19,938 nucleotides of DNA, from the NCBI GenBank assembly GCA_038874215.1, contig JAVZCV010000007.1, positions 18,893 through 38,830 on the forward strand, written 5' to 3'. Position numbers and translations under genes: made by a program. Below, piece by piece: positions 1 through 19,442 of this stretch. The notes beneath the pieces are model-generated. The model saw only the letters and a list, made by a program, of their open reading frames with translations. It made no database searches and was not told the origin of the DNA. Numbering within the stretch: position 1 is the first letter of the stretch; each line of letters begins with the position of its first letter. Source of the DNA: Candidatus Micrarchaeia archaeon (GTDB taxonomy: Archaea > Micrarchaeota > Micrarchaeia > Burarchaeales > JAVZCV01).

Positions 1-158
1 GCATCATAAACAGGGAGATTAGCGATAAACCACTGCGCGTAAAGTACTCTTTAACTGATGCGGGGAAAGCCTTGAAGCCTATCGCAGAAGCGATGAAGGC
101 TTGGTGCGAAGAGTGGCTTACAATATCTGAACCAACTCAGGAAAGCCCACAGCAATGA
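1..158 (+). CDS. HxlR-family winged helix-turn-helix regulator, 5'-truncated by the window edge
   Basis: Not in the ORF track. Reading from position 3 gives IINREISDKPLRVKYSLTDAGKALKPIAEAMKAWCEEWL...QQ* (TGA 156-158). This is the HxlR C-terminal pattern (P.rV.YsLT..G..L......W) and is paralogous to 174..500. Confidence 0.85.
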   Translation, partial: IINREISDKPLRVKYSLTDAGKALKPIAEAMKAWCEEWLTISEPTQESPQQ

Positions 159-502: not shown

Positions 503-531
503 TTTTAAATATCGGTGGAGAAATTATAAAA
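503..531 (+). promoter_or_regulatory. Candidate archaeal TATA boxes for the ilv leader/operon (TTTTAAATA 503-511; TTATAAAA 524-531)
   Basis: Two TATA-like AT-rich motifs lie between the HxlR stop and the leader ORF. The T-run could also act as the HxlR terminator. Confidence 0.4.
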
Positions 532-545
532 GTGGTTGGATGTAC

Positions 546-594
546 GCATACGCTTTTGCATGGGACAGCATGCCCATTTGGGGCGAGCGTATGC
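546..594 (+). promoter_or_regulatory. Leader stem-loop 1 (GCATACGCT 546-554 / AGCGTATGC 586-594; inner ATGGG 560-564 / CCCAT 573-577)
   Basis: Perfect 9-bp inverted repeat whose 3' arm contains the ATG at 591. Confidence 0.55.
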
Positions 595-656
595 AAGAAT
601 CACTAATTTTATTAACTTCACTTTTGCTAATCTCGCTTATTCTCGTAGTATTGTGA
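591..656 (+). CDS. Putative ilv leader peptide MQESLILLTSLLLISLILVVL (in-frame alternative ATGs at 540 and 570)
   Basis: Hand-translated short ORF with 9 Leu, 3 Ile and 2 Val in 21 codons. It ends TGA TAA, 42 nt before the ilvB ATG, and is flanked by hairpins. Confidence 0.6.
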   Translation: MQESLILLTSLLLISLILVVL

Positions 657-659
657 TAA

Positions 660-687
660 GACCCTCCAATTTTGAAGAGGGAGGGTC
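660..687 (+). promoter_or_regulatory. Leader stem-loop 2 (GACCCTCC 660-667 / GGAGGGTC 680-687), next to the ilvB RBS GGTGAT (690-695)
   Basis: Perfect 8-bp GC-rich inverted repeat with a 12-nt loop, between the leader ORF stop and the ilvB RBS. No U-tract follows it. Confidence 0.55.
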
Positions 688-698
688 TGGGTGATGAT

Positions 699-2396
699 AT
701 GAAGATGAGTGGGGCAAAGGCACTGGTTGAATGCCTGAAAAAGGAGAAAGTAAAGCATATATTCGGCTACCCTGGCGGGGCGATAATGCCAGTTTATGAC
801 GAGCTTTACAAAGACAAAAGCATAACCCATATACTAACGAGGCATGAGCAGGGAGCTGCGCATGCAGCAGAAGGATATGCGAAGGCAAGCGGTGAAGTTG
901 GCGTTGCAATGTCAACGAGCGGGCCAGGCGGGACTAACCTAATCACGGGAATCGCAGATGCATACATGGATTCAGTGCCCATAGTTGCATTCTCTGGGCA
1001 GGTTGTAACGCCCCAGATAGGAAATGATGCTTTTCAAGAGGCAGACATGTTTGGACTAACCATGCCTATGACAAAACACAACTTCAAGGTTACGGACCCA
1101 AAGGAGCTAGTGCATACTGTTCGCTCGGCATTTTACATAGCGAGAACGGGCAGGCCGGGTCCAGTGCATGTTGATTTACCAAAGGATATACAGACAGCGG
1201 AGATAGAATTTGACTACCCAAAAGAGATCAATCTTCGCGGCTATTCAATTAAGATAGAACCGCATCCCCTTCAGATAAGCCGTGCCGTTGATATGTTGCT
1301 CGCAGCCGAAAAACCTCTTCTGCTCGCAGGCGGAGGCACGATAATAGCGAATGCAAGCGATGAAGTGGTTGCGCTTGCCGAGATGCTCCTGATACCCGTG
1401 GTTACAACTACGATGGCGAAAGGGATAATACCAGAGACGCATCCGCTCTCACTTGGCGTTGGAGGAATGCACGGAAGAAAAATAAGCAACTATGCGCTCG
1501 TTAACTGCGACCTCCTGCTTGCGGTTGGAACAAGGTTCAGCGACAGGCTTACCTTTGATTTAAGATATTTCGCTCCTAATGCAAAAATCATACACATAGA
1601 CATAGACTCTGCGGAGATAGGAAAAAATGTGAACGTTGACCTTCCGATAGTGGGCGATGCAAAGAAAGCGCTATCTGCGATAATAAGAGAAGTTAAGAAA
1701 AGAAAGGCGAAGATATGCGAGAACGAGTGGAGGCAGACTGTGGCTAAACTGAAAGAAATGTGCGAGTGTTCTATTGCGTATGACGAAGTGCCCATAAAAC
1801 CACAGAGGGTCATATACGAACTCAACAAAAACATGCCAGAAAACACGATATTCGTAACGGAGGTGGGGCAAAACCAGATGTGGGCTTCCCACTTCCTTAA
1901 AGTGAAAAAGCCACGCCACTATATAACGAGCGGGGGTCTTGGGACCATGGGCTTCGGGCTTCCCGCCTCAATAGGCGCAAAGGCAGCCCGCCCAGACCAG
2001 CCCGTGCTTGACATAGGTGGTGATGGAAGCGTGTTGATGGTCATACAGGAACTAGCTACATCGGTGGAAGAAAACCTGCCAATTATAGTTTGCATACTCA
2101 ACAACAACTGGCTTGGAATGGTGAAGCAGTGGCAGAAGCTATTCATGGAAAAGCGATACTCTGAAACCCACCTTGGCAAGATGCCAGACTTCGTGAAGCT
2201 TGCGCATGCATTCCACTGTGATGGGGAGAGGGTTTCCAGGCCTGGCGAACTTAAAGGCGCGCTTCAGCGGGCGCTTAAATCCGATGTAACATATATAATA
2301 GACGTAGCAATAGACCCTGAGGAGGATGTCCTGCCCATGGTACCGCCAGGGGGGAGAATTGACCAGATGATACCATCAAAGGTATGTAAATTCTAG
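699..2396 (+). CDS. ilvB: Acetolactate synthase (AHAS) large catalytic subunit, biosynthetic type
   Basis: IFGYPGGAIMPVYD, RHEQGAAHAAEGYA, TSGPGGTN, GRPGPVHVDLPKD and the ThDP motif GDGS...NNNWLGMVKQWQ. Start moved to ATG 699 (MKMSGAKALV) behind RBS GGTGAT. Confidence 0.97.
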   Translation: MKMSGAKALVECLKKEKVKHIFGYPGGAIMPVYDELYKDKSITHILTRHEQGAAHAAEGYAKASGEVGVAMSTSGPGGTNLITGIADAYMDSVPIVAFSGQVVTPQIGNDAFQEADMFGLTMPMTKHNFKVTDPKELVHTVRSAFYIARTGRPGPVHVDLPKDIQTAEIEFDYPKEINLRGYSIKIEPHPLQISRAVDMLLAAEKPLLLAGGGTIIANASDEVVALAEMLLIPVVTTTMAKGIIPETHPLSLGVGGMHGRKISNYALVNCDLLLAVGTRFSDRLTFDLRYFAPNAKIIHIDIDSAEIGKNVNVDLPIVGDAKKALSAIIREVKKRKAKICENEWRQTVAKLKEMCECSIAYDEVPIKPQRVIYELNKNMPENTIFVTEVGQNQMWASHFLKVKKPRHYITSGGLGTMGFGLPASIGAKAARPDQPVLDIGGDGSVLMVIQELATSVEENLPIIVCILNNNWLGMVKQWQKLFMEKRYSETHLGKMPDFVKLAHAFHCDGERVSRPGELKGALQRALKSDVTYIIDVAIDPEEDVLPMVPPGGRIDQMIPSKVCKF

Positions 2397-2405
2397 GTGG
2401 TTAAT

Positions 2406-2909
2406 ATGGCAAGGAATAAAGGTGGGAAAGAAGATGAGCACATAATTTCAATGCTTGTTGAGGATAGAATGGGCACGCTCCAGCGGATAGCGTGCGTTTT
2501 CTCAAAGCGAAACTTCAACATGGATACGATAACGGTTGGTAAAACTGAGATGCCAGGGCTTTCCAGAGTAACGATAACAACGCGTGGGGATGAGAAAACG
2601 GTTGAGCAGATAGTGAAGCAACTGAACAAACTCGTAGATGTTATAAAGGTTAGTGAAATGGATGAAAGCACAGCAGTCATCCGAGAAATAGCAATGGTTA
2701 AAGTGCATGTGAAGGACTTCGCAGCGAGAAGCGAGATAATGAACTACTCAAACATATTCAGGGGCAGGGTGGTGGATGTTAGCCCCAAGTCAATAACTAT
2801 AGAGGTTACGGGTACCCCAAGCAAGATTGAGGCATTCGTTGATTTGATAAAGCCCTTTGGGATAAAGGAATTCGTTAGGACGGGCGTCACTGCGCTTGCC
2901 CGAGATTGA
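2406..2909 (+). CDS. ilvN: Acetolactate synthase small regulatory subunit (ACT domain)
   Basis: LVEDRMGTLQRIACVFSKRNFNMDTITVG, EQIVKQLNKLVDVIKV, RE+A+VKV and GIKEFVRTGVTAL.R; directly follows ilvB. ATG 2406 lies behind AGGTGG. Confidence 0.95.
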   Translation: MARNKGGKEDEHIISMLVEDRMGTLQRIACVFSKRNFNMDTITVGKTEMPGLSRVTITTRGDEKTVEQIVKQLNKLVDVIKVSEMDESTAVIREIAMVKVHVKDFAARSEIMNYSNIFRGRVVDVSPKSITIEVTGTPSKIEAFVDLIKPFGIKEFVRTGVTALARD

Positions 2910-2918: not shown

Positions 2919-3338
2919 ATGCGCATAAAAGAAACAAAAACTCTCCTCTTCATTAAAGTTGAGCAGGGTGAAGAGGTTATAGAAACCCTAACTCGTGCAT
3001 GCGCAGAAAGAAACATACACGGAGGAGTTATAACAGGGATAGGTGCTTTAAAAAGTGCTACACTAATAGCGGGCGGCAGCACTGAAAAACTCCAACCTGT
3101 GGAGAAAGACTTTTCAGGCCCAATAGAGATAGCGAGCGCTCTTGGAAACGTTTCCGAGAAAGATGGAAAAGCGTATATCCACCTGCACGCATGTCTTGGG
3201 CTCGGCGACCATACCGCAGTGGCGGGCCATCTCGTGCGCGGCGTAGTCTCGCTCGTGGGCGAGTTCGCAATATATAAGTCTGACAAGATTTCAAGAAGGT
3301 TTGATGAAAGAATAAGCATGTGGGTTTGGGACATCTGA
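2919..3338 (+). CDS. PPC/DUF296 domain protein (putative Zn-binding HxH...GH)
   Basis: GEEVIETL...ITGIGAL...EIASALGNV...YIHLHACLG...AGHL is the DUF296/AF0104-like pattern; starts 9 nt after the ilvN stop. Confidence 0.88.
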   Translation: MRIKETKTLLFIKVEQGEEVIETLTRACAERNIHGGVITGIGALKSATLIAGGSTEKLQPVEKDFSGPIEIASALGNVSEKDGKAYIHLHACLGLGDHTAVAGHLVRGVVSLVGEFAIYKSDKISRRFDERISMWVWDI

Positions 3339-3342: not shown

Positions 3343-4320
3343 TTATGCAAAAACGAGCCTATACCTCCCTTCCGATACTTCTACTATTTTTGCAAGCTTT
3401 GGTAGATCTACTCCAAGTACTTTGAGGGCGTACTCATGAGCCCTAAAACCTGGCCATAGTACCTGCCACACGTGGGCATTACCTTCCAACCTGAATTTCC
3501 CAAGTTGCCTCAGTACAGAGAAAAAGAGCGCAGGGCCTATCATAACTCCTCTTAACCCGGCGTCACGCACATCTCCCGCCTTAAAACCAAGCCCTTTTGC
3601 TCTTCCAATCGTGGTCTGCCAGTATCCCATATAACTACCAGTAATGCATTTCGGTTTCCAATCGCTTTCCCATGCCGCAATGGCTACAAACATTCGCAAC
3701 AATAAATCCATAGCCTTTTCATCCAAAGATATCCCATAAACGCGCGCCATCTTGTTAATGGCTATCTCAAGATTATTGACAAAAGCGCGTGCAAATCTCT
3801 CGTCGCACTTTCTTCTGCCCATCGCACCAGAAGTCATCGCCCTTACAGCTATCTCCTTCGTTTCATCGCTCGCATGCACAAATCTCCTGGAAAGCGGCGA
3901 AAGTGCTGGCTGTTGCGGCATTCGTTCGTATCTCCTCGCTTCCCCATTCCACCTAACATCCAAGAGAGGCTGGCGCCCAACGCCCTTTAACCTGTCCTCA
4001 TGAGGTGAAACCTCATATACTTTCCCATCGGCACCTTTTATATAAAATCTTACAGTGCCATCAACAAGTATGCACTTGGCCCCCAGCCTACCAGCGCATT
4101 CCCCCTCTCTTATTCTAAATATATGGATCTCTAGTACCGGCTTTCCAGTATTATCAGTCATTTGCGCATTGGGCAGCTCAATCTTCCCGCCTTTTGACAA
4201 GACATCAAACGCAACATGCTGGAAGAAATAGTCAAATCTTCTTTTCTGTTGCTCGTTCAGTTTATCCCAAGGTTGCGGCAGAATTACCGCCTTCGGGCTT
4301 GGAGCTACCATCTGTGGCAT
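3343..4320 (-). CDS. Hypothetical protein with a lysozyme-like / lytic transglycosylase (SLT-like) motif
   Basis: 325-aa ORF, convergent with DUF296. AIAAWESDWKPKCITGSYMGYWQ resembles SLT motifs I (ES) and II (GxxQ). The gene call is more certain than the function. Confidence 0.6.
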   Translation of the reverse strand: MPQMVAPSPKAVILPQPWDKLNEQQKRRFDYFFQHVAFDVLSKGGKIELPNAQMTDNTGKPVLEIHIFRIREGECAGRLGAKCILVDGTVRFYIKGADGKVYEVSPHEDRLKGVGRQPLLDVRWNGEARRYERMPQQPALSPLSRRFVHASDETKEIAVRAMTSGAMGRRKCDERFARAFVNNLEIAINKMARVYGISLDEKAMDLLLRMFVAIAAWESDWKPKCITGSYMGYWQTTIGRAKGLGFKAGDVRDAGLRGVMIGPALFFSVLRQLGKFRLEGNAHVWQVLWPGFRAHEYALKVLGVDLPKLAKIVEVSEGRYRLVFA

Positions 4321-4537: not shown

Positions 4538-7500
4538 ATGAGTTCTCAACATTGCCAACAAAAATCCAGAAATGAGCCAAACAAACGCACGCGACTATAC
4601 AGAATGATGCAAAATGTTAGCTCCACGCTTCGTTATTGGAGTCTGGGGAAGTCACAAAGGAAGAGAATTGAAAGCGTTCTTAAAGAATATGGGCTTGAGC
4701 CAAGCAGGGAGAACATCCAGGTACTTGCAGAGTTGGATAGGAGAGTCATTAATGAAAGGTTGTGCCACCAACTGTATCATGGCGATTGCGGAATTATGTC
4801 CAATCCCTGTAAGGACGTGCGCGATATAAATACATTGGTTGAAGTTGCAAGTGCGACATTTGAACTTGTGAGCTTAATTGAGAAGCATAGCTACACCATT
4901 GGCATTAATATTGACAATATATGTTCAACTGCATTGAAGATTGCGGCGGGCAGAAGTGCAGAGGAAAGAACAAGGATAAAAATTGCGCTTGAACGTTTTT
5001 TCAATGACGACAGCTGCGTACAAGCAAGCGTGCTTTTTGAAATCATGAGACCGGGAATAGGAAATGCACGCGAATTTGAAACTGCACTGGAATGTTGCGC
5101 AGAGAATGCAGGCAGAGCGCTTAAAAATGGAGGAAAACTCCCCCAGTGGATTGTGCCTGAAGCTTATCAAAACTTAGAACTTGGTGACTTTGCTGAGAGA
5201 CAGGAGTTTGTAAAAGTTTGCTGCGAAGCTGTGCGGTTTGCGCCATTCCAAGGACATGGGTTGTATAATTTCTTTTCCGCCGCTACGAGCATAGCACAAC
5301 TAAAGGGAGAAAGCATTGTTAATGCTGGGAACATGCTGCTTTCTCTGATGCGTTTGCATAATGACGATATTACTAGAGAAGGTATCGCTTACATGGCAGC
5401 CAATGCACCTTATCTTCTTGACAAAACCCCAGAAGCAGTGGGCGTTATTGCAGAATATATAGGGCAACGGATTTCTCATAAAAGCAGTATGTTGGGATCA
5501 AGCGTTTTGAGCGATGATGAATTTCGTAAGCTCAACAACATGGCTGAGAAATATGCTTCTGATCCCAACATGCTTAAAGCAAGCCTAATTCTGAGCCAGA
5601 GATTGAAAAAGTTTTACAGCGTCATGCCTTTAGATGCCGCTTCATACAACCTTGGCTTAGAACATCAACCTGTTACGTTCCAGCATATTGCACAAAGAGG
5701 AAACATCAGCCCCGCCCATCTTGCAGAAATGATTTGTAATGCAATTGAAAAAGTAGAAAGCAAAACGGATTACGTGAGTTATGGCATAGGACATTTTGAA
5801 TCTCTATTCACTGACGAGAAAACTACTGAGGAGTTACTTAGCCTCACGTGCTCTATATGCCAAAGGATGGGACAGCATGGGATTAATAGCATGAAGGATA
5901 TTCTTTCTGGCCCATCAGGAGAGATATTTTTTCCACCGAAAATAAACCTAAGGGCAAGTTGGCTTGAAAATTTTGCAGGTATTTCCTTAACTCCATCCGA
6001 AGTTTTGGGATATCTTAGGTGTGTTAAACATGCGCTTGATGCCGCCATAGACGCGCGCCCCCTTGTTAATTTGCTCTTCTCAACCCATTGGGGGTCTTAC
6101 TTACCTTACCGTGATGTAAATGGCCAAGTGCGTATTGCGCTGGACTCGTGTGCGCTGCCATTCGTTATGTCGCCTGAAGACTTGGACTGGGTGGTGCAAA
6201 CTGTTGAGCAAACCTCTCAACTTGTGTTACTCAATCCATTTGATTATTTTTTTGATAATGCAGCACCTCTCAGGGAAGTGCATCAGGAGCTTTCAAAAAT
6301 AACTTCCATGCTCTACACTTTTACGCATCTGCACGTTAAGGACGGGGAGGTAATAATAGCACGTGTGGCACCAACAAGCGAATATGTTAGGATAGGGGAG
6401 TGCGACCAAATTTCGCGCATTGCTGATGAAATAGGGAAACATAGGATGACTATCAGACAACGCGAGTGGTTTGAAAAGATGCGGAAAGATATAGATGAAC
6501 ACAGGAGACGTATTCTGGATATAGCAAGACATACTCTGGATAGTGAGGAGTGCAAGCAGGCAATATCTAATGAAATCGATGAGCTTTTAATCACAATGAA
6601 CGGGCTTTGCATTCTTGTAAAAGAGATTAGAGCACCTGCGCTAAAGGAGTCCTTCAAGAAGTATGCAGAGTTGTTAGGAAAATTGCAAAAAACAGCCATC
6701 GCTTGTGGCATTAGTGAAGATCACCTTAGGGCTGCGATGGCGGAAATCCGCTACAGTAACATATGGGGTGATGAAAGGGCAAACCTTGAATATCTGGTTG
6801 CTGCCACAAATTCTGTTATACACATGGCTAGTCATTTGCAGAAGCTAGGGGTAGAGCCAAAAGATGCGATAGGACTTAGCCTTAAATTTATAGAAGCGTC
6901 AATCCCCCAGGCATTATCTACTAATTCTGGATCTATTCACATGGTAGCCAAATTTGCCAGAATAACTGAAGATTTTGATGCCTTCTTTGGGATGTTATCA
7001 AGCCATGATTGGGTAAAGCAGTACTATCATACTAGGTATGACCTCATATTTGACCTAACACTGAAAGTATACAAAATTAACGGAAACCTGCTAGATTCTG
7101 GAAAGACGATTCTCTCTATAGGAGATTACCTTATTGGGCACGGAATAGGTATCTTCTATATTCACAGTATGGTTGATATATGCTTGGATAGAGGGTTAGG
7201 CGATGCTGCAGCTGTTATAGACTCATTAACAAGGGTTGAAAGGGTCGCAAGTGTAAAGGGCTTGGATGTACGTGCAACCTTGGAGTATACAATTTATTTT
7301 GCACATTGCATGAAAAGCTTCAGCGTTGGAGACATAGGAATGGCGATTGTTGATGCTATTGACATTTGCAAGCAGTATGGGCGCAACCCAGCCACTGTCA
7401 TGTCTGCCTGCAAACGTTTTGTTGAAGTAGCGAACGCAGGAAGGAGTATAACTGACCTCGCGGCAGACGTGTGCAGGGCGATGAGCTACGCTGAAAAACA

Positions 7501-9958
7501 TGGTGTAGATTTTGAACAGGCCGCGGTTTTTGCAACGAGGCATGTTAAAGGCTACATGATGCGTGAAGACGTTGACATTTCAAGAGCGGTTGAAACTGTT
7601 ATACAGGAAAGTGTTGACCTATTGATAGCCTGTCGTGGAAAACAGTACTACTCAGCTGTTATTTCGCTCGCAGGTAAACACGCATATGGCAATATAGCTG
7701 CCACTGGCGAGAATTTACTTTTTGCTTTTGAAAAAGCATCCGAGGCGGGCATGCAAACTGCTCAAACCGTAAATCTTGTTAATGCGATTTCAAACGTTTA
7801 TCGTGTAGGAAGCACAGATTTTAAAAGAATTTTTGGCTGGTGCATTGAGGAATGCAAGACGGATATAACACTACGAAATGGCCATGTTTTAAGTGGCACA
7901 TCCCTTATTGAGAACGGTGTGTTGGTCGCTGCCGTGGTATATTCAGCGAGGAACGGAAATGAAGATTCTTTCAAAGAGGTAACTGAGACGGTGCGCAAGC
8001 ACTTGCAAAAGCAATGCCTTACCCCAGATGCATGTAGAGATTTCATGCAGGTTGCGTCAAAGATATACTGGTCCGAAGAGCCGATAAAGAGAGATATACG
8101 GCTAATGCTTCATGCACGTATTTCGGCTCTTTTTCAAGGCCAAAACTGTATGGAAGCACATTTAATGGTGGGCAATTTCGTTTCTAAAACACCCAACCCG
8201 CACAATCTTATTGAACGTTATGCAGCACCTGTGGAAATAAACTGGAGAGGAGATACTCCAACAAGGCCTTTTGCACCAGAAGCACTTGCTGCAGCATACC
8301 TTCTTACACGGGGAAATGTTGATACTCTAGATAGGATTGCGGCAATTTTGGCAGGAAAGAAAACCAATGCTGGGCGCCCCAGTGCAGAACGTGATGTAAT
8401 AAGGAGTATAAATTTAGGTCTTATACATGCGGCAACGACAAACGGGAGCCAGAGAGAAATGATGAAGAATATTTTGACAAATTTTGCGAAAGCAGCAACA
8501 AAGGAAGAAAATGGGCGCTACCAAACGAGGATTCCAAAAGACGAGAGGCGCAGGCGATGCCTTCAATTCTTTAGAATGCTTTCCATGGTTTCGCTAATTG
8601 CGGACAATGAACTCACACGATCTGTTTCAGGTGAGATGGAGACGGCTGCGCTTAGGGCGCAAGGGGATGCATGGGCTGAAGCAATAGATGCCGCGGAGAA
8701 CCTGTGCATCTTCAAAGCATGCGAAAAAATTGGAATAAGCGACCCAAGTAGCTTGGGTTCTAGCATTGGCTTGACGTATGATGAAACAAAGGGGAGATTT
8801 ATCAGTTTCTTACAATCACCTGAATTTAAGATACTTATTAAACTTGGCGCCCGCTACTCTTCAAAATATCCCGAACTCATGCCGCTGCTCAGAGAGTTTG
8901 CGCTAAAGATTGCTGAAGAGTATCTCGTTGCGGCTGGCGGGCGTCCCACATGGGAACGTTTCCGAGAATGGAGGAACAGTGGTATAGGCGGGCAACAGCT
9001 CGCAATCCTTGGATCAGACGAGGCACGTGCAGCTTGGGCAAAGAGCGATGAGCGGCGCTTGCAAGGCAACAATTTGAAGCTTCCAGAGGAGGCGAAGCAT
9101 AGTTCAGTCGTTGGAACCCTGGAGCTCGCCGAAAGATATATTCAGGAACAACTCTCTTCAATCATCAAATTAGATACACATTTTGTTGAGTATGGGAAGA
9201 AATCAGGTGTTCCTCGCTATCGGATGCTTGCAAGCGAAATCGCAGAAGGAATGATGAATGTGAGAGAAATAGTGGGCAAAATAAATCCAACGGGCACAAC
9301 ATCAGATTTCGTAGAAGATTACAAAAAAGCAATTGAAATCTGTGAGAAAGTTGCTTCTGCAATAGCAGAATACAAGCAGGAAACCGCGGATGAGAATGCG
9401 TTAGGGGACCTATCGTACCTCGTACACAACCTTGCCGATGTTATGAGACGCCCCAAGCAGTCATTCGTTAGGGAAGACCTTATAGTGCGCGACACAGACA
9501 TACCATATGAGGTGCTGTCTATGGGCGTAGTGCCTGTTTCCACCTGCCAATCCTACGAAGGAGGCAGTTACAACCATGGATTATTGGCGTTTGCTGTTGA
9601 TGCAGACAAGCGTAATGTTCTGATAACAGACAACGATGGTACGGTGCTTGTGCGCTCAACACTAAAACTCGTGAATACGGATTTTGGCCCTGCATTGATG
9701 TTCGTCAACTTTTATACAAAGATGCCAGATTTGTCTAACGAATTCTGGCAAATTCTGCGGGATTATGCGATAGACAAGGCGCGCAGAATGGGTGTTATAT
9801 TCCTAGACCAAAATGCTAATGTAGCGAAACGATCTATATCTGTGTATTGTTCCCCGAGCAGGTCCGCCTATGAGTACCTTGATGCATTCGGTGGCCTCAT
9901 TAGAGCATCGGGAGGGTATTCTAGGAAAGTGGACGCTGCTGTCATCAAACCTTCGTAG
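4538..9958 (+). CDS. Giant hypothetical protein (1806 aa) with probable helical repeats and a C-terminal alpha/beta domain
   Basis: Uninterrupted 5.4-kb ORF. No signal peptide or transmembrane segment is evident and no family can be named with confidence. Confidence 0.85.
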   Translation: MSSQHCQQKSRNEPNKRTRLYRMMQNVSSTLRYWSLGKSQRKRIESVLKEYGLEPSRENIQVLAELDRRVINERLCHQLYHGDCGIMSNPCKDVRDINTLVEVASATFELVSLIEKHSYTIGINIDNICSTALKIAAGRSAEERTRIKIALERFFNDDSCVQASVLFEIMRPGIGNAREFETALECCAENAGRALKNGGKLPQWIVPEAYQNLELGDFAERQEFVKVCCEAVRFAPFQGHGLYNFFSAATSIAQLKGESIVNAGNMLLSLMRLHNDDITREGIAYMAANAPYLLDKTPEAVGVIAEYIGQRISHKSSMLGSSVLSDDEFRKLNNMAEKYASDPNMLKASLILSQRLKKFYSVMPLDAASYNLGLEHQPVTFQHIAQRGNISPAHLAEMICNAIEKVESKTDYVSYGIGHFESLFTDEKTTEELLSLTCSICQRMGQHGINSMKDILSGPSGEIFFPPKINLRASWLENFAGISLTPSEVLGYLRCVKHALDAAIDARPLVNLLFSTHWGSYLPYRDVNGQVRIALDSCALPFVMSPEDLDWVVQTVEQTSQLVLLNPFDYFFDNAAPLREVHQELSKITSMLYTFTHLHVKDGEVIIARVAPTSEYVRIGECDQISRIADEIGKHRMTIRQREWFEKMRKDIDEHRRRILDIARHTLDSEECKQAISNEIDELLITMNGLCILVKEIRAPALKESFKKYAELLGKLQKTAIACGISEDHLRAAMAEIRYSNIWGDERANLEYLVAATNSVIHMASHLQKLGVEPKDAIGLSLKFIEASIPQALSTNSGSIHMVAKFARITEDFDAFFGMLSSHDWVKQYYHTRYDLIFDLTLKVYKINGNLLDSGKTILSIGDYLIGHGIGIFYIHSMVDICLDRGLGDAAAVIDSLTRVERVASVKGLDVRATLEYTIYFAHCMKSFSVGDIGMAIVDAIDICKQYGRNPATVMSACKRFVEVANAGRSITDLAADVCRAMSYAEKHGVDFEQAAVFATRHVKGYMMREDVDISRAVETVIQESVDLLIACRGKQYYSAVISLAGKHAYGNIAATGENLLFAFEKASEAGMQTAQTVNLVNAISNVYRVGSTDFKRIFGWCIEECKTDITLRNGHVLSGTSLIENGVLVAAVVYSARNGNEDSFKEVTETVRKHLQKQCLTPDACRDFMQVASKIYWSEEPIKRDIRLMLHARISALFQGQNCMEAHLMVGNFVSKTPNPHNLIERYAAPVEINWRGDTPTRPFAPEALAAAYLLTRGNVDTLDRIAAILAGKKTNAGRPSAERDVIRSINLGLIHAATTNGSQREMMKNILTNFAKAATKEENGRYQTRIPKDERRRRCLQFFRMLSMVSLIADNELTRSVSGEMETAALRAQGDAWAEAIDAAENLCIFKACEKIGISDPSSLGSSIGLTYDETKGRFISFLQSPEFKILIKLGARYSSKYPELMPLLREFALKIAEEYLVAAGGRPTWERFREWRNSGIGGQQLAILGSDEARAAWAKSDERRLQGNNLKLPEEAKHSSVVGTLELAERYIQEQLSSIIKLDTHFVEYGKKSGVPRYRMLASEIAEGMMNVREIVGKINPTGTTSDFVEDYKKAIEICEKVASAIAEYKQETADENALGDLSYLVHNLADVMRRPKQSFVREDLIVRDTDIPYEVLSMGVVPVSTCQSYEGGSYNHGLLAFAVDADKRNVLITDNDGTVLVRSTLKLVNTDFGPALMFVNFYTKMPDLSNEFWQILRDYAIDKARRMGVIFLDQNANVAKRSISVYCSPSRSAYEYLDAFGGLIRASGGYSRKVDAAVIKPS

Positions 9959-10034: not shown

Positions 10035-11054
10035 ATGGCACTAAAAATATACCACGACGAAGACGCAGATGAAACCCTCCTGAAAGGAAAAACCGTTGCA
10101 GTTATAGGGTACGGAATTCAGGGGAGGGCCCAGGCTCTCTGCCTGAAAGACTCAGGCGTTAAAGTAGTTGCGGGCATCTCCAAAGAATATGCATTTAGGA
10201 AAGGGCCAGAAAACACATGGACGCAGGCGGAGAAAGACGGCGTTCAGCCGATGGAAATAGCGGATGCGGCAAAGGCAGCAGACATAATAATGATGCTTTT
10301 ACCAGACATGGTTCAGAAGAAGGTTTATGAGGATTTCATCAAGCCGAACCTCACTTCTGGGAAAACCCTCTACTTCTCGCACGGTTTCAACATAACCTTC
10401 AAGAGGATAAAGCCCCCGAAAAACATAGATGTGATAATGCTTGCACCAAAGGGACCTGGCGCAAAGGTTCGTGAGACATACCTTGCGGGCTTTGGGGTTC
10501 CTGCCCTTCTTGCAATCCACCAGAATGCAACGGGAAAAGCAAAGGAAACGGCGCTTGCGCTTGCGAAGGCAATGCACTTCACCCGTGCGGGTGTTTTTGA
10601 ATGCACTTTTGACCAAGAAACGATATCTGACCTTTTCGGAGAGCAAACGGTCCTCTGTGGCGGCTGCGTTGAACTGATAAAGGCAGGCTTTGATACGCTC
10701 GTTGAGGACGGTTTTCCTCCCGAAGTAGCCTATTTTGAATGCCTGCACGAGCTTAAGCTTATAACAGACCTCATACAGCAGGGAGGGCTTGAATACATGT
10801 GGGAGCGCGTCTCTGAGACGGCTCGCTACGGGGGAAGAACGCGCGGCAAGAGAGTAATAGACGCACGGGTGCGCAAAACGATGAAGAAGATATTGAAAGA
10901 AATAAAGAGCGGTAAGTTCGCAAAAGAGTGGATAGCAGAATACGAGGCAGGCATGCCCAAGTTCAAGCAGATGAAAGAGGAAGAAAGCAAGCTCCTCATA
11001 GAGCAAGTCGGTGCTGAAATAAGGAAGATGTTCAGGATAGGGGAACAGAAGTAG
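10035..11054 (+). CDS. ilvC: Ketol-acid reductoisomerase (class I, short)
   Basis: VAVIGYGIQGRAQA, LLPD, FSHGFNI, APKGPG, DLFGEQTVLCGG, AYFECLHELKLI and VSETARYG; RBS GGTGA at 10026-10030. Confidence 0.97.
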   Translation: MALKIYHDEDADETLLKGKTVAVIGYGIQGRAQALCLKDSGVKVVAGISKEYAFRKGPENTWTQAEKDGVQPMEIADAAKAADIIMMLLPDMVQKKVYEDFIKPNLTSGKTLYFSHGFNITFKRIKPPKNIDVIMLAPKGPGAKVRETYLAGFGVPALLAIHQNATGKAKETALALAKAMHFTRAGVFECTFDQETISDLFGEQTVLCGGCVELIKAGFDTLVEDGFPPEVAYFECLHELKLITDLIQQGGLEYMWERVSETARYGGRTRGKRVIDARVRKTMKKILKEIKSGKFAKEWIAEYEAGMPKFKQMKEEESKLLIEQVGAEIRKMFRIGEQK

Positions 11055-11138
11055 ATAGACATTAATACTGGTAGGGCAAAAGTGGAAAGTTAGTTCCAGA
11101 ATATTTAAAATTTTTAATTGCATCACATATCTGATTTG

Positions 11139-11894
11139 ATGCGCTTGCTTGTTAAACTTGAGGCTGCAAAAGACTGCTCTTCGGATTTGCTCTATCATCA
11201 CAAATTACAAGGCTTCATTTATTCTCTTCTTAGGAATACGGAACACGAGAAACTTCATGATAAGAAGGGATATAAGTTCTTCTGCTTCTCAAACATCTTC
11301 CCAACAAGAGATATGAAGAAAGGTGAAAAGGCGCATCTGATAGTTTCTTCCCCTAATGATGAATTTGTAAAAACCCTATGGAAGCAAATACTGCAAAGAA
11401 TTAGGACAACAATACACATAGGTGATAATTCCTACAACATTCTTTCTGCTCGTATGCTCCAACCACATCTTCCGCGCTCCTTCTCGTTTATAACTGGCAC
11501 GCCCATAATAATCCGAATACCAAACTACCGCTATGGCAACTACGGGATAAAGGCTGAAAAGCCTTACAAATACGTTTATTGGAAGCCTAAGCATTCATTT
11601 GAGGCATTCATAAAGCAACTTGAAGAAAATTTAATAAAGAAATACAACGAATTTAACAACACCTGTATGGAGCGCATGCCCATCTTTGAGAGATTCATTT
11701 TCAAGAAAACAGTTTGCAACCATATTATAATTAACGGAAAGGAAGTGAAGGTGTTCGGCTCCGTATGGCAGTTCATGTTTGATGGCGCAAGTCGCAATCC
11801 GGAAAAGCGGAAACTTCTAAGGTTCGCTCTTGATACAGGTTTAGGGGAACTCAATAGTCTTGGATTTGGGTTTGTGAATGTGATCCGATGCTAA
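11139..11894 (+). CDS. cas6: CRISPR-associated endoribonuclease Cas6
   Basis: MRLLVKL..., YHHKLQGFIY, KFFCFSNIFP, TPIIIR and the C-terminal G-loop GLGELNSLGFGFV. ATG 11139 is preferred over TTG 11118; TATA-like TTTAAAA at about 11104-11110. Confidence 0.95.
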   Translation: MRLLVKLEAAKDCSSDLLYHHKLQGFIYSLLRNTEHEKLHDKKGYKFFCFSNIFPTRDMKKGEKAHLIVSSPNDEFVKTLWKQILQRIRTTIHIGDNSYNILSARMLQPHLPRSFSFITGTPIIIRIPNYRYGNYGIKAEKPYKYVYWKPKHSFEAFIKQLEENLIKKYNEFNNTCMERMPIFERFIFKKTVCNHIIINGKEVKVFGSVWQFMFDGASRNPEKRKLLRFALDTGLGELNSLGFGFVNVIRC

Positions 11895-13747
11895 GTGAGA
11901 TGTGCTTTTTCATGGATTGTTATGCCAAACATGTGTTACGTGATAAATTCAACGAGAAATGGCCCAAAAATGCCGAATTAAGAAATACGGTGTACTTAGC
12001 GAGTGTGCTGGAGTCCGATAATAGAAATAGGGAGAATGTCAGGTTCTTAACTTACGATGCTAACACCAGAAAATTTGAAATTTTGGACAGAATTGAAACA
12101 ATGAATAAACTAGATCAAGAACAACGCGATGTATTAGGTAGATTTATTGACAATCCGTATATAAGTGGCAAATTTTATGATAGCAACAACAAACGGCTGG
12201 CCAGTACATGCGGCATAGGTTCGTTTTTTCCATTCATTTTTAAGTTGCCTGAAAAAGAAAATAAAATCGAAGAAAAAATAGAAAAGACACGGAGAGCATT
12301 AGAAGATTATGGTGTCGAGGAGTTCATAAAAATATTTGATGACCAAGAATTCCGTAAGGGCTTAGAAAAAGAAATTTTGAGCCTTAAGAAAGAGAAACCT
12401 AACAAAGATGAGAGAGAAGAAAAAACTCAGACATATGTCCTTATTTTATTTAAAAATGATGTTGAGCCGTATTATAAGTTTTTAGAACACGAGAAGTTAT
12501 TAGATATGGCGATATCGGATCCGAAGGAAGGTCGTTGTCAGATTTGCAATGAACACGGTTTAAGAGTAGGGTATCCTGTAGTTGGAAGTAATTATGACTC
12601 AAAAAAACTGTTCTTGACAAGCCCTACAAAAGGAAAAAGCAGGATAGGTGTCTGCCCCCTCTGCGGATTTAAAATCAATGCTTTTTACAAATTACTAAAT
12701 TTTTCAAAAATCATGCCTGTTTTTATTGATCCGATGGTGACTGAGATTGCTGCTAAAAATGTGAGAACCTTTATTAGAGGCGAAGAATCATATGGGAAGT
12801 TCATGACAAGGATTTACTACGAGCTCGGAAGAGACGAAAACCGAATGGCACATTATCTTATTATACTTACAAAACTTACAAAAAATGGGCTATGGGTGGA
12901 TTACGTCTCTTCGCTTAAGTGGGAGCTTGGATGGAAAAAGGTCCATGATAACAAAGAAGGTTTAAAAACGCGACACAACAGGAAAGAAATAGAAGAAATA
13001 TTTGTGAAAGCATTAATGGGGAATTCTGAAGATCAAAATGTTCCTTCTTGGTACTTTGGTGATGTGCGCGATGAAAAAGGCTTGGCGAAGAAAGTTGGGA
13101 GATACTCACTCTACCTAATATATAAGTATCGGGATCACCTCTATAGATTTACATATAAAAACGAACAACCTTTCGCTAAGCAGGATATTATTGAATTCGT
13201 CAATTTTTCTATAGCAGAAAGATATTACGATCTTCTCCAGAACAGAAGGAGCAAAAAAAACCTATTTTTACTATTTGGAGATTCTATTAAAAGCTCGCTC
13301 GAGATATTTTTCAATATGCCGGTATTAATGGGAGGTGAACCTATGAAAGATCTTGTAGATTTAAGAAGAAGCCTTGATAAGATAATCACTGATAAAAGTG
13401 AAGAAATCGGCGATGAAGAATGGGCATACTCTGCTGGTGCATTTTATAGATACTTGGTAGGCTTAACAAAAGCCAAAGAACCACAACTCCAATTAGAACC
13501 AATCATAAATGCGTCTACAGTAAAAGAGGTGATTGACCTACTTGCAATAACATTTGAAAGATACCAGCATGCTATTCGTATTCCATATCTAATGAAATGG
13601 GGTGGGATAAGTGCTTGCAGCTTTGTAAGAGAAGATTTAAACAAGAGTTTTTTGCCTTTAAAACCATATTTTTATGCGGGATTTACTGACCCGTATGCGC
13701 AGAATAAGTTTTATGGTCAAACGAATGGAGGTGTAAAAAATGACTAG
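11888..13747 (+). CDS. cas8b: Type I-B Cascade large subunit Cas8b (divergent)
   Basis: Sits between cas6 and cas7; 619 aa; CQIC...CPLC zinc-finger pairs; C-terminal helical AYSAGAFYRYL...YFYAGF region typical of the Cas8b/Cas11 part. Start codon uncertain. Confidence 0.82.
   Translation: MLSEMCFFMDCYAKHVLRDKFNEKWPKNAELRNTVYLASVLESDNRNRENVRFLTYDANTRKFEILDRIETMNKLDQEQRDVLGRFIDNPYISGKFYDSNNKRLASTCGIGSFFPFIFKLPEKENKIEEKIEKTRRALEDYGVEEFIKIFDDQEFRKGLEKEILSLKKEKPNKDEREEKTQTYVLILFKNDVEPYYKFLEHEKLLDMAISDPKEGRCQICNEHGLRVGYPVVGSNYDSKKLFLTSPTKGKSRIGVCPLCGFKINAFYKLLNFSKIMPVFIDPMVTEIAAKNVRTFIRGEESYGKFMTRIYYELGRDENRMAHYLIILTKLTKNGLWVDYVSSLKWELGWKKVHDNKEGLKTRHNRKEIEEIFVKALMGNSEDQNVPSWYFGDVRDEKGLAKKVGRYSLYLIYKYRDHLYRFTYKNEQPFAKQDIIEFVNFSIAERYYDLLQNRRSKKNLFLLFGDSIKSSLEIFFNMPVLMGGEPMKDLVDLRRSLDKIITDKSEEIGDEEWAYSAGAFYRYLVGLTKAKEPQLQLEPIINASTVKEVIDLLAITFERYQHAIRIPYLMKWGGISACSFVREDLNKSFLPLKPYFYAGFTDPYAQNKFYGQTNGGVKND
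13343..13747 (+). CDS. cas11: Putative Cas11 small subunit translated from an internal in-frame start in cas8b (134 aa)
   Basis: GGAGGTGA (13331-13338) lies 4 nt before the in-frame ATG 13343 (MKDLVDLRRSLDKII...). Confidence 0.7.
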   Translation: MKDLVDLRRSLDKIITDKSEEIGDEEWAYSAGAFYRYLVGLTKAKEPQLQLEPIINASTVKEVIDLLAITFERYQHAIRIPYLMKWGGISACSFVREDLNKSFLPLKPYFYAGFTDPYAQNKFYGQTNGGVKND

Positions 13748-14705: not shown

Positions 14706-14727
14706 ACAACAAAGCAATAGGGAGAAC

Positions 14728-15516
14728 ATGAACAATAAAGAAAGCAAAGAAATATTCTCTTTTGTTATTTCATCAGATTTCGCGTCTTTCAGAAAATTTG
14801 ACACTGCGGACACCCTCTATCTTACATATTATTTTATACCAAGGCCTGTTGTTCTTGGAATTATCGGGGCTATTATGGGGTTAAAGAAATCAACTTCTGC
14901 CACATTACCTTGGTGGGAGAAACTGAAGACAGTAAAGATTGCGGTTGAGCCATTAGAAATTTCATCCTTAAAGCACCTCGTCATTTATAACAATAGCACA
15001 GGAGCGGCGTCCTATAGTGAGGAAAAAGGCTTGCGCTCAGGACAGAATTTAGTTGTGAGAGAGCAAATTTTGATCAATCCGAGATATAGAATTTATGTTG
15101 AGCTCAATGATATAACTAAAGACGCATTTGACTTACTTACTAAAAATAAAACTGTTTTTACACCGTATATGGGAAAAAATGAATTTATGGCAAAAATAAC
15201 TGAAATTGAGAAACATAAAATAGAGAGGTTTGAAGGGATATGTAGAGTCAGCTCTATATATCCTTCGTATCTGGCAGGATTAAGCAATCGTCACACTAAT
15301 TACTGGATAGAGGGTTTGGATTTGGTAGAAATATTGGAAAGCTATCCGTATGACTATGATGATCAATATAAATACATCCAGGATGTCTTCATCTTTTCCA
15401 ATAGAGAAATAGATACAAGGACGCTGGGCAATACGTGTGGTTGTTTTGTTAAACTCAAAAATGGAAAAGTTATTTATCTAATTGGTGGGAGGGGAAATGA
15501 AACTTCTTTGGGATGA
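14728..15516 (+). CDS. cas5: Type I-B Cas5
   Basis: FASFRK...LTYYFIPRPVVLGIIGAIMGL, EQILINPRYRIYV and PYMGKNEF. Confidence 0.92.
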   Translation: MNNKESKEIFSFVISSDFASFRKFDTADTLYLTYYFIPRPVVLGIIGAIMGLKKSTSATLPWWEKLKTVKIAVEPLEISSLKHLVIYNNSTGAASYSEEKGLRSGQNLVVREQILINPRYRIYVELNDITKDAFDLLTKNKTVFTPYMGKNEFMAKITEIEKHKIERFEGICRVSSIYPSYLAGLSNRHTNYWIEGLDLVEILESYPYDYDDQYKYIQDVFIFSNREIDTRTLGNTCGCFVKLKNGKVIYLIGGRGNETSLG

Positions 15517-17878: not shown

Positions 17879-17887
17879 TCAAACGAT

Positions 17888-19441: not shown

Positions 19442-19442
19442 C

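What the first reader, a model, noticed from the sequence alone, without database searches (positions are those of the whole stretch)
540..698. Candidate Leu/Ile/Val leader peptide (attenuator-like control) upstream of ilvB in an apparent archaeon
Seen: an unannotated ORF at 591-656 encodes MQESLILLTSLLLISLILVVL. Fourteen of its last 17 codons are Leu, Ile or Val, the end products of the downstream pathway; the other three are Ser, Ser and Thr. A GC-rich hairpin (660-687) starts 3 nt after the stop and ends 2 nt before the ilvB RBS. Established: bacterial ilv operons (E. coli ilvL and ivbL; actinobacterial ilvB leaders) use such peptides to sense charged tRNA, and archaea couple transcription and translation. 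To my knowledge ilv leader-peptide control is not well described in archaea. Inference: ribosome stalling on L/I/V codons controls ilvBN expression. There is no hairpin-plus-U-tract, so the output would be RBS accessibility or archaeal-type termination rather than classical attenuation. The alternative is a small membrane peptide, but the hydrophobic run has no Phe, Ala or Gly, which favours the leader reading.
Basis: partly seen in the sequence, partly recalled or inferred. Interest (0 to 1): 0.85.

Follow-up and report, generated by a model that had tools for sequence, protein, structure and literature searches.

The report
Archaeal branched-chain amino acid leader peptide
A tiny gene packed with leucine, isoleucine and valine codons opens the messenger RNA for the first enzyme that makes these amino acids in an archaeon, and the same layout recurs in other archaea, pointing to a ribosome-based nutrient sensor so far known only from bacteria.

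Summary
The ORF at 591-656, its run of 14 Leu/Ile/Val codons in 17, and the 9-bp hairpin 3 nt after the stop are all as described. The run beats 300 of 300 shuffles.

Comparative evidence supports the leader-peptide reading. I collected 79 ilvB upstream regions, window included. Fourteen carry such a run on the sense strand and none on the reverse complement. All 11 members of a Thermoplasmatota-like ilvB clade and all 6 members of an Archaeoglobi-like clade have one; 28 Bathyarchaeia and the bacteria do not.

In 18 of the 19 uORF loci an in-frame start lies 18-30 nt behind a TATA-like box. The uORFs therefore look leaderless. In the window that start is ATG 540, giving 38 codons rather than 21.

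The hairpin next to the stop codon covaries in relatives.

How the signal is passed on is unresolved. In the window the L/I/V codons pair with the ilvB start region, only on the sense strand. A modelled stalled ribosome frees the AUG. Null models and a test across the class do not confirm this.

There is no classical terminator, no Rfam family and no peptide homologue. Ten literature searches found no archaeal precedent.

The parts
503..513 (+). TATA-like A/T box, the presumed promoter of the leader-ilvBN transcript
   Evidence: An 11-nt A/T-only run ends 27 nt before ATG 540. The same spacing rule (18-30 nt) holds in 18 of the 19 uORF loci, against 353 of 6315 (5.6%) start-like triplets in the background. 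The transcription start itself has not been mapped.
540..656 (+). Leader ORF of 38 codons plus TGA, probably leaderless.
   Evidence: The choice of start rests on promoter spacing, by analogy with relatives.
603..653 (+). Run of 17 codons, 14 of them Leu, Ile or Val, reaching the last sense codon. This is the presumed sensing tract.
   Evidence: (0 of 300 shuffles).
546..594 (+). 5' stem-loop inside the leader ORF (10-bp stem, 546-555 with 585-594). It covers ATG 591 and starts 6 nt after ATG 540.
   Evidence: Folds at -23.3 kcal/mol, z -2.95, with 1 of 200 shuffles as stable. The opposite strand folds equally well, so the strand is not decided for this element.
659..688 (+). Hairpin next to the stop codon: 9 bp with a 12-nt loop
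   Evidence: Hairpins in the equivalent position covary in the Methanomassiliicoccales-like group: 8 of 11 pairs changed on both sides and 0 of 500 shuffles reach the covariation score.
621..720 (+). Outer helix. Leader codons 621-657 pair with the ilvB SD, AUG and first codons (691-720), closed at the tip by the 659-688 hairpin.
   Evidence: Region 600-725 folds at -40.1 kcal/mol, z -4.30, 0 of 200 shuffles. Its reverse complement folds at -21.2, z -0.73, 45 of 200. The ilvB AUG is unpaired with probability 0.04 in the free RNA.
689..694 (+). Shine-Dalgarno of ilvB (GGTGAT type)
   Evidence: Read. Similar motifs precede ilvC, cas7 and the PCC gene.
699..2909 (+). ilvB (699-2396) and ilvN (2397-2909), the genes under control. 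A PCC-domain gene (2919-3338) may belong to the same transcript.

Best explanation
Region 540-698 is the 5' leader of an archaeal ilvBN mRNA. It encodes a short, probably leaderless peptide whose last 17 codons are nearly all Leu, Ile or Val.

Proposed mechanism:
- The ribosome translating this ORF serves as the sensor. When charged Leu-, Ile- or Val-tRNA is scarce, it dwells on the run.
- In the free RNA the second half of the run (621-657) pairs with the ilvB SD, AUG and first codons (691-720). The hairpin at 659-688 clamps this helix.
- A ribosome held on these codons keeps the helix open, so ilvB can be initiated.
- A ribosome that runs through and leaves lets the helix close again.

This is translational attenuation. 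It resembles the leaderless polycysteine sORFs of mycobacteria and, more loosely, ermC.

Shown here: the ORF, the codon bias, its recurrence upstream of ilvB in several archaeal lineages, the promoter spacing, the covarying hairpin beside the stop in relatives, and the strand-specific predicted helix.

Inferred: that the ORF is translated, that ribosomes stall on it, and the sign and level of the output.

My odds: about 0.7 that this is a branched-chain-amino-acid-sensing leader peptide of some kind, and about 0.4 that the output is unmasking of the ilvB start.
For: 1. Codon bias beyond chance: 10 of 12 L/I/V, reached by 0 of 300 shuffles. It is the only such intergenic stretch in the window.

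2. Recurrence. Fourteen of 79 ilvB upstream regions score 9 or more on the sense strand, and 0 of 79 on the reverse complement. On the ilvB tree, all 11 rows of the Thermoplasmatota-like clade and all 6 rows of the Archaeoglobi-like clade carry a uORF (scores 7-11). The window is sister to the first clade (SH-aLRT 93). The 28 Bathyarchaeia score 0-6.

3. The peptides differ between clades but keep their composition. The last 15 residues of the 19 uORFs, pooled (285 residues), hold V 75, L 73, I 36 (65%), F 6, A 7, G 12 and no M, W or Y.

4. Leaderless layout. In 18 of the 19 uORF loci a TATA-like run ends 18-30 nt before an in-frame start, against a background of 5.6%. The same rule applied to the best L/I/V segment of the other 59 loci is met in 13.

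5. Coding signature. In the three closest relatives (L004, L010, L015), 5-8 of the 11-15 nucleotide differences per pair fall on third positions, and 3-7 changed codons are synonymous.

6. A hairpin starts between 10 nt before and about 7 nt after the stop in the window and in all 11 members of the Thermoplasmatota-like clade, at -11 to -29 kcal/mol. It covaries: 89.5% of cells are paired against 73.9% when shuffled, 0 of 500.

7. Structure in the window. Region 535-720 has z -4.17. The outer helix exists only on the sense strand. The ilvB AUG is unpaired with probability 0.04 when the RNA is free, and 0.51-0.71 with a ribosome whose A site sits on codons 636-651. With other transcript ends, the start region rises from 0.21 to 0.57.

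8. The window's run pairs with its own ilvB start region at -24.1 kcal/mol. Against the 18 foreign start regions the mean is -15.0, and 0 of 18 are as low.

9. A working bacterial precedent with the same logic exists (abstract of 10.1101/834739).
Against: - Synonymous recoding of codons 600-653 (400 variants) pairs with the ilvB start about as well as the native sequence. MFE is as low in 91 of 400, AUG accessibility as low in 38 of 400, and start-region accessibility as low in 118 of 400. Any L/I/V tract tends to pair with a purine-rich start region, so selection for the helix is not shown.
- In the ribosome model the SD itself does not open. Its unpaired probability goes from 0.52 to 0.20-0.29, and to 0.03 with the ribosome on the stop codon.
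- Across the class the model fails. A ribosome on the last codon opens the start region in only 8 of 19 loci, and one 6 codons earlier in 13 of 19 (Wilcoxon p 0.77 and 0.06). Cognate run/start duplexes are no stronger than random pairings: -18.2 against -17.6 kcal/mol, with 1003 of 5000 permutations as low.
- Foreign runs pair with the window's start region nearly as well as its own: mean -19.7, with 3 of 18 as low.
- The codons in the run are not rare.
- No relative closer than 58% ilvB identity was available. The window's own helices therefore have no covariation support.
- The transcription start, translation of the ORF and any response to amino acids are all untested.
Confidence: 0.42

Rival explanations
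1. Same sensor, different output. The stalled ribosome changes the amount of full-length transcript rather than ilvB initiation. It could do this by occluding the hairpin beside the stop, by affecting archaeal termination (oligo-T or factor-dependent, FttA/aCPSF1-type), or by shielding the mRNA from 5'-to-3' decay.
For: The hairpin beside the stop is the one structural feature shared and covarying across the Thermoplasmatota-like clade, whereas start-region masking is not class-wide. Some loci do carry a hairpin or stop followed by a T-run: L051, L063, L040 and L004 have T5 or longer between the stop and ilvB. My knowledge of archaeal oligo-T termination, FttA and RNase J is recalled and comes from no call.
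Against: The window has no run of 5 or more T between the stop and ilvB. Such runs occur in 4 of the 19 uORF loci and in 10 of the other 59, so they are not enriched. As I recall, archaeal RNA polymerase is not known to terminate at hairpins alone. In the simplest single-hairpin version the sign of the response comes out wrong, because a ribosome stalled far upstream lets the hairpin form.
Confidence: 0.25
2. A constitutive uORF without amino-acid sensing. A leaderless mini-ORF loads ribosomes and unfolds or couples translation into ilvB. The L/I/V bias would be a by-product of needing a U-rich strand opposite the purine-rich start region.
For: Any synonymous L/I/V tract pairs with the start region. 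A terminating ribosome is also predicted to open the AUG, to 0.66.
Against: Pairing alone does not predict the strict period-3 pattern: T at codon position 2 in 14 of 17 codons, against 5 of 17 elsewhere. It does not explain the near absence of Phe and Met among NTN codons across 19 loci. It does not explain why the association is with the gene for the first enzyme shared by the branched-chain amino acid pathways in separate lineages. Runs of about 50 nt are longer than any start region.
Confidence: 0.12
3. A small hydrophobic or membrane peptide with its own function in trans.
For: The 17-residue hydrophobic run is nearly long enough for a membrane helix. In three close relatives the C-terminal 17 residues are conserved through synonymous changes.
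Against: The pooled composition is 65% L/I/V with F 2%, A 2.5%, G 4% and no M, W or Y. From recall, this is unlike membrane helices. Several relatives have Asp, Arg or Pro inside the run. The peptides cannot be aligned between clades, yet they always lie directly upstream of ilvB. There were no hits at E up to 0.001 among 1.84 billion representatives, though power is low for 38 residues.
Confidence: 0.08
4. A chance ORF within a noncoding leader. The palindromes would be protein operators, for instance for the adjacent HxlR-type regulators, or the leader would be a ligand- or protein-binding RNA.
For: Both stem-loops are perfect inverted repeats that fold equally well on either strand. Two HxlR-family genes lie immediately upstream.
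Against: The codon run is not explained (0 of 300 shuffles). The open frame, the TATA-spaced start and the stop placed at the hairpin recur in 18-19 loci. The stems in relatives use G-U pairs, and the window's outer helix is strand-specific. No Rfam family matches.
Confidence: 0.07

Closest known systems
Leaderless polycysteine sORF attenuators of mycobacteria (Canestrari et al., bioRxiv 10.1101/834739; abstract and passages read)
   Same: [quoted passage not shown] The stalled ribosome is proposed to block an mRNA structure that otherwise sequesters the downstream ribosome-binding site. The window shows all of these at the sequence and prediction level.
   Different: The domain of life and the transcription and translation machinery differ. 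The amino acids are Leu, Ile and Val rather than Cys. The window adds a clamp hairpin beside the stop. Nothing here has been tested experimentally.
ilvBNC attenuator of Corynebacterium glutamicum and other actinobacterial ilvB leaders (PMC11857589, abstract and passages; PMC1262725, listing and one passage)
   Same: Both have a leaderless leader peptide upstream of ilvB. Both have a 5'-proximal hairpin close to the start codon; that paper's H1 is said to block leaderless initiation, and the window has a stem at 546-594, 6 nt after ATG 540.
   Different: The C. glutamicum element ends in a proven intrinsic terminator and works through terminator/antiterminator exchange. The window has no hairpin-plus-U terminator.
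Classical enterobacterial leader peptides ilvL, ivbL and leuL
   Same: Short ORFs rich in Leu, Ile and Val codons lie upstream of acetohydroxyacid synthase or other branched-chain amino acid genes and sense charged tRNA through ribosome stalling.
   Different: Those start from an SD, use four-segment alternative pairing and end in a Rho-independent terminator. None of the Rfam leader families matches the window or 20 related loci.
Translational attenuation of ermC and cat (recalled; cited in the reference list of 10.1101/834739)
   Same: A ribosome stalled in a leader ORF unmasks the start region of the downstream gene.
   Different: There the inducer is an antibiotic acting with a specific nascent peptide, not a shortage of aminoacyl-tRNA.

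Membership tests
Classical ribosome-mediated transcription attenuator (trp / ilvL / ivbL type) | Short ORF directly upstream of the biosynthetic operon, enriched in codons of its end products | tested here: met
   14 of 17 codons are L/I/V, and 0 of 300 shuffles match the run. The downstream genes are ilvB and ilvN.
Classical ribosome-mediated transcription attenuator (trp / ilvL / ivbL type) | Intrinsic terminator (GC-rich hairpin followed by a U-tract) between the leader ORF and the structural gene | tested here: not met
   No terminator-like site lies in 501-698. No run of 5 or more T lies between the stop and ilvB.
Classical ribosome-mediated transcription attenuator (trp / ilvL / ivbL type) | Mutually exclusive terminator and antiterminator pairings selected by ribosome position | tested here: inconclusive
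   Constrained folds change with ribosome position. No terminator state exists, and there is no covariation for the window itself.
Classical ribosome-mediated transcription attenuator (trp / ilvL / ivbL type) | Expression responds to the charging of the cognate tRNAs | not testable with these tools
   This needs a reporter, Ribo-seq or an in vitro system.
Leaderless end-product-codon sORF with translational attenuation (mycobacterial Cys type) | The sORF begins at the transcription start | tested here: inconclusive
   A TATA-like run ends 27 nt before ATG 540. The same spacing is seen in 18 of the 19 uORF loci, against a 5.6% background. Two other genes in the window (the giant ORF and cas1) show the same spacing. 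No 5' end has been mapped.
Leaderless end-product-codon sORF with translational attenuation (mycobacterial Cys type) | The codon run pairs with the RBS or start of the downstream gene | tested here: met
   The AUG is unpaired with probability 0.04. Region 600-725 folds at -40.1 kcal/mol, z -4.30, only on the sense strand. The cognate duplex is -24.1 kcal/mol against a mean of -15.0 for foreign start regions, 0 of 18 as low.
Leaderless end-product-codon sORF with translational attenuation (mycobacterial Cys type) | The pairing is selected beyond what the codon composition alone gives, and is conserved | tested here: not met
   In the synonymous null, 38 to 118 of 400 variants are as closed as the native sequence. 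Across the class, cognate duplexes are no stronger than permuted ones, 1003 of 5000.
Leaderless end-product-codon sORF with translational attenuation (mycobacterial Cys type) | A ribosome held on the run frees the downstream start region | tested here: inconclusive
   In the window the AUG goes from 0.04 to 0.51-0.71, but the SD goes from 0.52 to 0.20-0.29. Across the class the start region opens in 8 of 19 and 13 of 19 loci.
Rfam leader or cis-regulatory families | Match to a curated covariance model | tested here: not met
   There were 0 matches at gathering score in the window and in 20 related loci. Only two chance-level hits (E 2.2 and 4) appeared in 480-760.
Small membrane protein | Composition like a membrane helix, and homologues independent of gene context | tested here: not met
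   The runs are 65% L/I/V, with F, A and G at 2-4% and no M, W or Y. No homologues were found at E up to 0.001 (low power for so short a query).

The most novel reading that the evidence does not exclude
Archaea of at least three lineages place a leaderless mini-ORF ending in a run of Leu, Ile and Val codons at the 5' end of the ilvBN mRNA. These lineages are a Thermoplasmatota/Methanomassiliicoccales-like clade, an Archaeoglobi-like clade and the window's own lineage. Bathyarchaeia may carry a 16-codon version. The ORF would act as a ribosome-based sensor of aminoacyl-tRNA supply.

This would be the first ribosome-mediated, leader-peptide attenuation system in the archaeal domain. It is built without a bacterial-type terminator and around a conserved hairpin beside the stop codon. 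Its output mechanism may itself be new.
Probability: 0.55. Interest if true: 0.88.

Novelty: new variant of a known kind. Interest (0 to 1): 0.8.

Why it matters
Leader-peptide attenuation is a textbook bacterial mechanism. It relies on coupled transcription and translation and on hairpin-dependent termination. Ten full-text searches of the open library found no paper that describes it for an archaeon. None of five direct phrases, such as 'archaeal attenuator' or 'attenuation in archaea', occurs in any paper searched. Two archaeal Ribo-seq papers mention 5'-UTR sORFs only as possible uORFs (passages).

If it is real, this element shows that archaea sense amino-acid supply through the ribosome. 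It gives a concrete, mutable sequence for asking how a stalled archaeal ribosome talks to initiation, termination or decay. It also suggests a simple search rule for finding further archaeal sensory sORFs: a TATA box, a start about 25 nt later, and a run of end-product codons up to the stop.

Tried and rejected
1. Rfam found nothing in the window at gathering score, in 20 related loci, or in 480-760 at E up to 10, apart from two chance hits.

2. Peptide homology. The search for homologous proteins turned the 38-residue query away as too short. A phmmer search against 1.84 billion representatives gave 0 hits. The word-index database was not searched, so that remains unchecked.

3. Classical or oligo-T terminator. 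There is none in the window, and T-runs are not enriched in the class: 4 of 19 against 10 of 59.

4. Rare-codon bias. There is none. The Leu and Val codons used are of average frequency. Ile ATA makes up 54% of Ile codons in the window's genes and is used 0 of 4 times in the ORF, too few to interpret.

5. Selection for the run/start helix is not shown, either by the synonymous null or by the cognate-versus-permuted duplex test.

6. Start-region opening by a modelled ribosome across the class is not consistent. Start regions of uORF loci are somewhat less accessible than those of other ilvB loci: median 0.43 against 0.50, Mann-Whitney p 0.0006.

7. A dispersed repeat or mobile palindrome is unlikely. 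The leader's stems are not repeated elsewhere in the window.

8. Choice of the 19 uORF loci. They are the 14 that scored 9 or more, plus 5 clade-mates scoring 7-8 (L012, L017, L036, L040, L058). L028, L059 and L064 also scored 8 but were left out. Their L/I/V stretch lies in stop-to-stop segments of 94, 32 and 42 residues with no TATA-spaced start. L052 has no ilvB start in the locus and was dropped throughout. L003 was dropped because it has under 230 nt of upstream sequence.

9. A first shuffle script timed out. One fold script stopped part-way and was completed.

The same positions were then found by rule.

No relative closer than 58% ilvB identity could be examined.
Full report
OBSERVATION

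One search confirms the ORF at 591-656, stop included. Fourteen of its last 17 codons are Leu, Ile or Val; the rest are Thr, Ser, Ser. A perfect 9-bp stem (659-667 with 680-688, 12-nt loop) starts 3 nt after the TGA. A GGTGAT-type Shine-Dalgarno follows at 689-694, then the ilvB ATG at 699. No T-tract follows the hairpin.

The run is not a composition effect. The best 12-residue window has 10 L/I/V. Dinucleotide shuffles of the 200 nt upstream of ilvB give 6.19 +/- 0.93, and 0 of 300 reach 10. In all six frames of the window only four stretches reach 9 of 12. This is the only intergenic one. T occupies codon position 2 in 14 of 17 codons and positions 1 and 3 in 5 of 17 each.

SURROUNDINGS

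The window holds, in order:
- two tandem HxlR-family genes: 1-116 resembles 352-467 at 72%, and the second gene is 174-500;
- the 198-nt intergenic leader;
- ilvB (699-2396; TIGR00118, 805.7 bits) and ilvN (2397-2909);
- a PCC-domain gene;
- a 325-residue ORF on the other strand and an 1806-residue ORF, neither with any family match;
- ilvC (10035-11054);
- a type I-B-like cas operon and the first two CRISPR repeats.

Other genes in the window use either GGTGA/GGAGG-type SDs or a TATA-like box 19-29 nt before the ATG, for example the 1806-residue ORF and cas1. This fits an archaeon. So do the closest ilvB relatives, which are Bathyarchaeia, Archaeoglobaceae, Methanocellales and Thermoplasmata at 50-58% identity.

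COMPARATIVE TEST

One scan of species-representative genomes with IlvB returned 79 loci. In 78 of them I could place the ilvB start.

Scoring the 200 nt upstream, stop to stop, gave 14 of 79 regions (window included) with 9 or more L/I/V in 12 on the sense strand. None of 79 reached that on the reverse complement.

On an IlvB tree the window is sister (SH-aLRT 93, not starred) to a clade of 11 Thermoplasmata/Methanomassiliicoccales-labelled rows. All 11 carry such a uORF, with scores 7-10. A clade of 6 Archaeoglobaceae-like rows all carry one too (scores 8-11), as does one DHVE2 row on a long branch. The 28 Bathyarchaeia rows score 0-6. Methanosarcinales, Methanomicrobiales and the bacterial rows are at background, apart from three rows scoring 8 (L028, L059, L064) that I left out because they lack a TATA-spaced start (see Tried and rejected).

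The peptides cannot be aligned between clades but share a design. A short mixed N-terminus is followed by an L/I/V run reaching the last one to three codons. The last 15 residues of the 19 uORFs, pooled, are 65% L/I/V, with F 2%, A 2.5%, G 4% and no M, W or Y. In the three closest relatives most differences fall on third codon positions.

START CODON

In 18 of the 19 loci an A/T-only run of at least 7 nt ends 18-30 nt upstream of an in-frame ATG or GTG. The background is 353 of 6315 start-like triplets. For the best L/I/V segment of the other 59 loci the rule is met in 13, mostly long ORFs with many candidate starts.

From recalled knowledge, an archaeal TATA box lies about 25 nt from the transcription start. 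On that basis these uORFs start at, or within a few nt of, the 5' end of the mRNA. In the window the start that fits is ATG 540, 27 nt after the box at 503-513. That gives 38 codons.

ATG 591 has no such box, has only a weak G-run before it, and lies in the 3' arm of the 546-594 stem. I therefore extend the feature to 540-656. ATG 570 and 591 remain possible.

STRUCTURE

Region 535-720 folds at -64.2 kcal/mol, z -4.17. It has three elements:
- the 5' stem-loop 546-594: -23.3 kcal/mol, z -2.95;
- the hairpin beside the stop: -16.4 kcal/mol, z -2.59;
- an outer helix that pairs leader codons 621-657 with 691-720, which holds the ilvB SD in part, the AUG and the first seven codons.

Region 600-725 folds at -40.1 kcal/mol, z -4.30, with 0 of 200 shuffles as stable. 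Its reverse complement folds at only -21.2, z -0.73, 45 of 200. The outer helix is therefore an RNA feature of the sense strand. The two perfect palindromes fold on either strand.

In relatives, a stable hairpin begins between 10 nt before and about 7 nt after the uORF stop in all 11 members of the Thermoplasmatota-like clade. In the seven Methanomassiliicoccales-like sequences, 8 of 11 pairs show changes on both sides. There, 89.5% of cells pair against 73.9% in shuffles (0 of 500) and 34-59% when the partner is slid. In the four Thermoplasmata-like sequences, 5 of 31 pairs covary, and the consensus also pairs late uORF codons with the ilvB SD. The Archaeoglobi-like loci have weaker local folds. 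Three of the 19 loci (L040, L051, L063) have T-runs after the stop, and one (L004) has a T-run in its hairpin loop.

MECHANISM TESTS

I modelled a ribosome as an unpaired block from 15 nt before the A site to 12 nt after it. That footprint size is recalled.

In the window:
- The ilvB AUG is unpaired with probability 0.04 in the free RNA. It rises to 0.51-0.71 with the A site on codons 636-651 and to 0.66 on the stop.
- The SD falls from 0.52 to 0.20-0.29, and to 0.03 on the stop. It finds other partners in 600-630.
- With transcript ends at -170 and +60, the start region goes from 0.21 to 0.57.
- The window's run pairs with its own start region better than with any of 18 foreign ones: -24.1 against a mean of -15.0 kcal/mol.

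Against this reading:
- 400 synonymous recodings of the run give similar masking.
- Foreign runs pair with the window's start region nearly as well: mean -19.7, with 3 of 18 as low.
- Across the 19 loci, neither ribosome-dependent opening (8 of 19 and 13 of 19) nor cognate complementarity (1003 of 5000 permutations) holds.
- Start regions of uORF loci are modestly less accessible than those of the other 59 loci: median 0.43 against 0.50, p 0.0006.

My reading is this. L/I/V codons are rich in U and C and pair with purine-rich start regions almost automatically. In this window that pairing is strong and well placed. That selection maintains it is not demonstrated.

CONCLUSION ON FUNCTION

The sensor part is well supported by recurrence, composition, frame conservation and promoter spacing. 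By the sensor I mean a translated, leaderless, L/I/V-rich leader ORF tied to ilvB. I give it about 0.7.

The output is open. For this window I favour unmasking of the ilvB start region, at about 0.4. An effect at the transcript level, centred on the conserved hairpin beside the stop, is the main rival at about 0.25.

A trans-acting hydrophobic peptide, a constitutive coupling uORF and a chance ORF in a protein-binding leader are less likely. The reasons are given under the rivals.

COMPARISON WITH KNOWN SYSTEMS

The element works like bacterial leader-peptide attenuators. It fails the defining terminator test of the classical family.

Its nearest described analogue is the leaderless polycysteine sORF of mycobacteria. 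There, stalled ribosomes block structures that sequester the downstream ribosome-binding site (abstract of 10.1101/834739). The C. glutamicum ilvBNC leader is also leaderless and has a 5'-proximal hairpin said to block initiation, but it ends in a proven terminator (PMC11857589, abstract and one Discussion passage).

LITERATURE

Ten searches found no archaeal leader-peptide attenuator.

I read only passages located by term search in these papers, and none describes one:
- PMC13158618
- PMC1262725
- PMC2965389 and PMC4833913, where the term appears in reference lists only
- PMC13675443
- PMC7261190
- PMC11456600
- PMC10117724

Subscription journals and supplementary tables were not searched, so a prior description cannot be excluded. 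Knowledge of ilvL, ivbL, leuL, ermC, archaeal termination and ribosome footprint size is recalled.

LIMITS

- No relative closer than 58% IlvB identity was available.
- Taxon labels are the submitters'.
- All structures are thermodynamic predictions.
- The 19 loci were chosen partly by clade membership; the details are under Tried and rejected.

Noticed in passing
L014, L035, L039, L042, L044, L046, L050, L055, L060, L067, L027, L032 and others: about 150 to 100 nt upstream of the ilvB start (in L014, roughly 2342-2393): Bathyarchaeia share a block upstream of ilvB that is conserved at the nucleotide level. It reads as a 16-codon ORF ending in three or four Val, Leu or Ile codons just before the stop, and it contains a 9-nt direct repeat. 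In L039, L050 and L029 its start lies 21-28 nt behind a TATA-like run. It could be a minimal leader peptide or a protein operator.
   Followed up: partly
window 1-116 and 352-467; gene at 174-500: Two tandem HxlR-family regulator genes sit directly upstream of the leader. The partial first copy is 72% identical to the second over 116 nt, with a 31-nt identical stretch. The second gene's reading frame is the same as the leader ORF's. Only its TAA at 498-500 and 13 sense codons (501-539) lie between them and ATG 540.
   Followed up: no
window 4538-9958 (+) and 3343-4320 (-): An 1806-residue ORF and a 325-residue ORF, neither with a Pfam or NCBIfam match, lie between ilvBN and ilvC. The large ORF has a TATA-like box 19 nt before its ATG.
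   Followed up: no
window 11118-19709 and 19831-19925: A type I-B-like cas operon is present, with cas6, a large subunit without a family match, cas7, cas5 (TIGR02592), cas3, cas4, cas1 and cas2. Two identical 30-nt CRISPR repeats, spaced 65 nt apart, lie at the window's end.
   Followed up: no
window 2919-3338: A PCC-domain (PF03479) gene follows ilvN after 9 nt and has its own SD. It may be co-transcribed with ilvBN and so come under the same leader.
   Followed up: no
window 600-630 with 680-715: When a modelled ribosome sits on the last codons or the stop of the leader ORF, the ilvB SD region is predicted to re-pair with an earlier part of the L/I/V run. The start region thus has two alternative partners within the leader.
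   Followed up: partly
L034, L040, L051, L058: the 45 nt before the uORF start: The Archaeoglobi-like loci share a nearly identical A/T-rich promoter block just upstream of their otherwise divergent uORFs.
   Followed up: no
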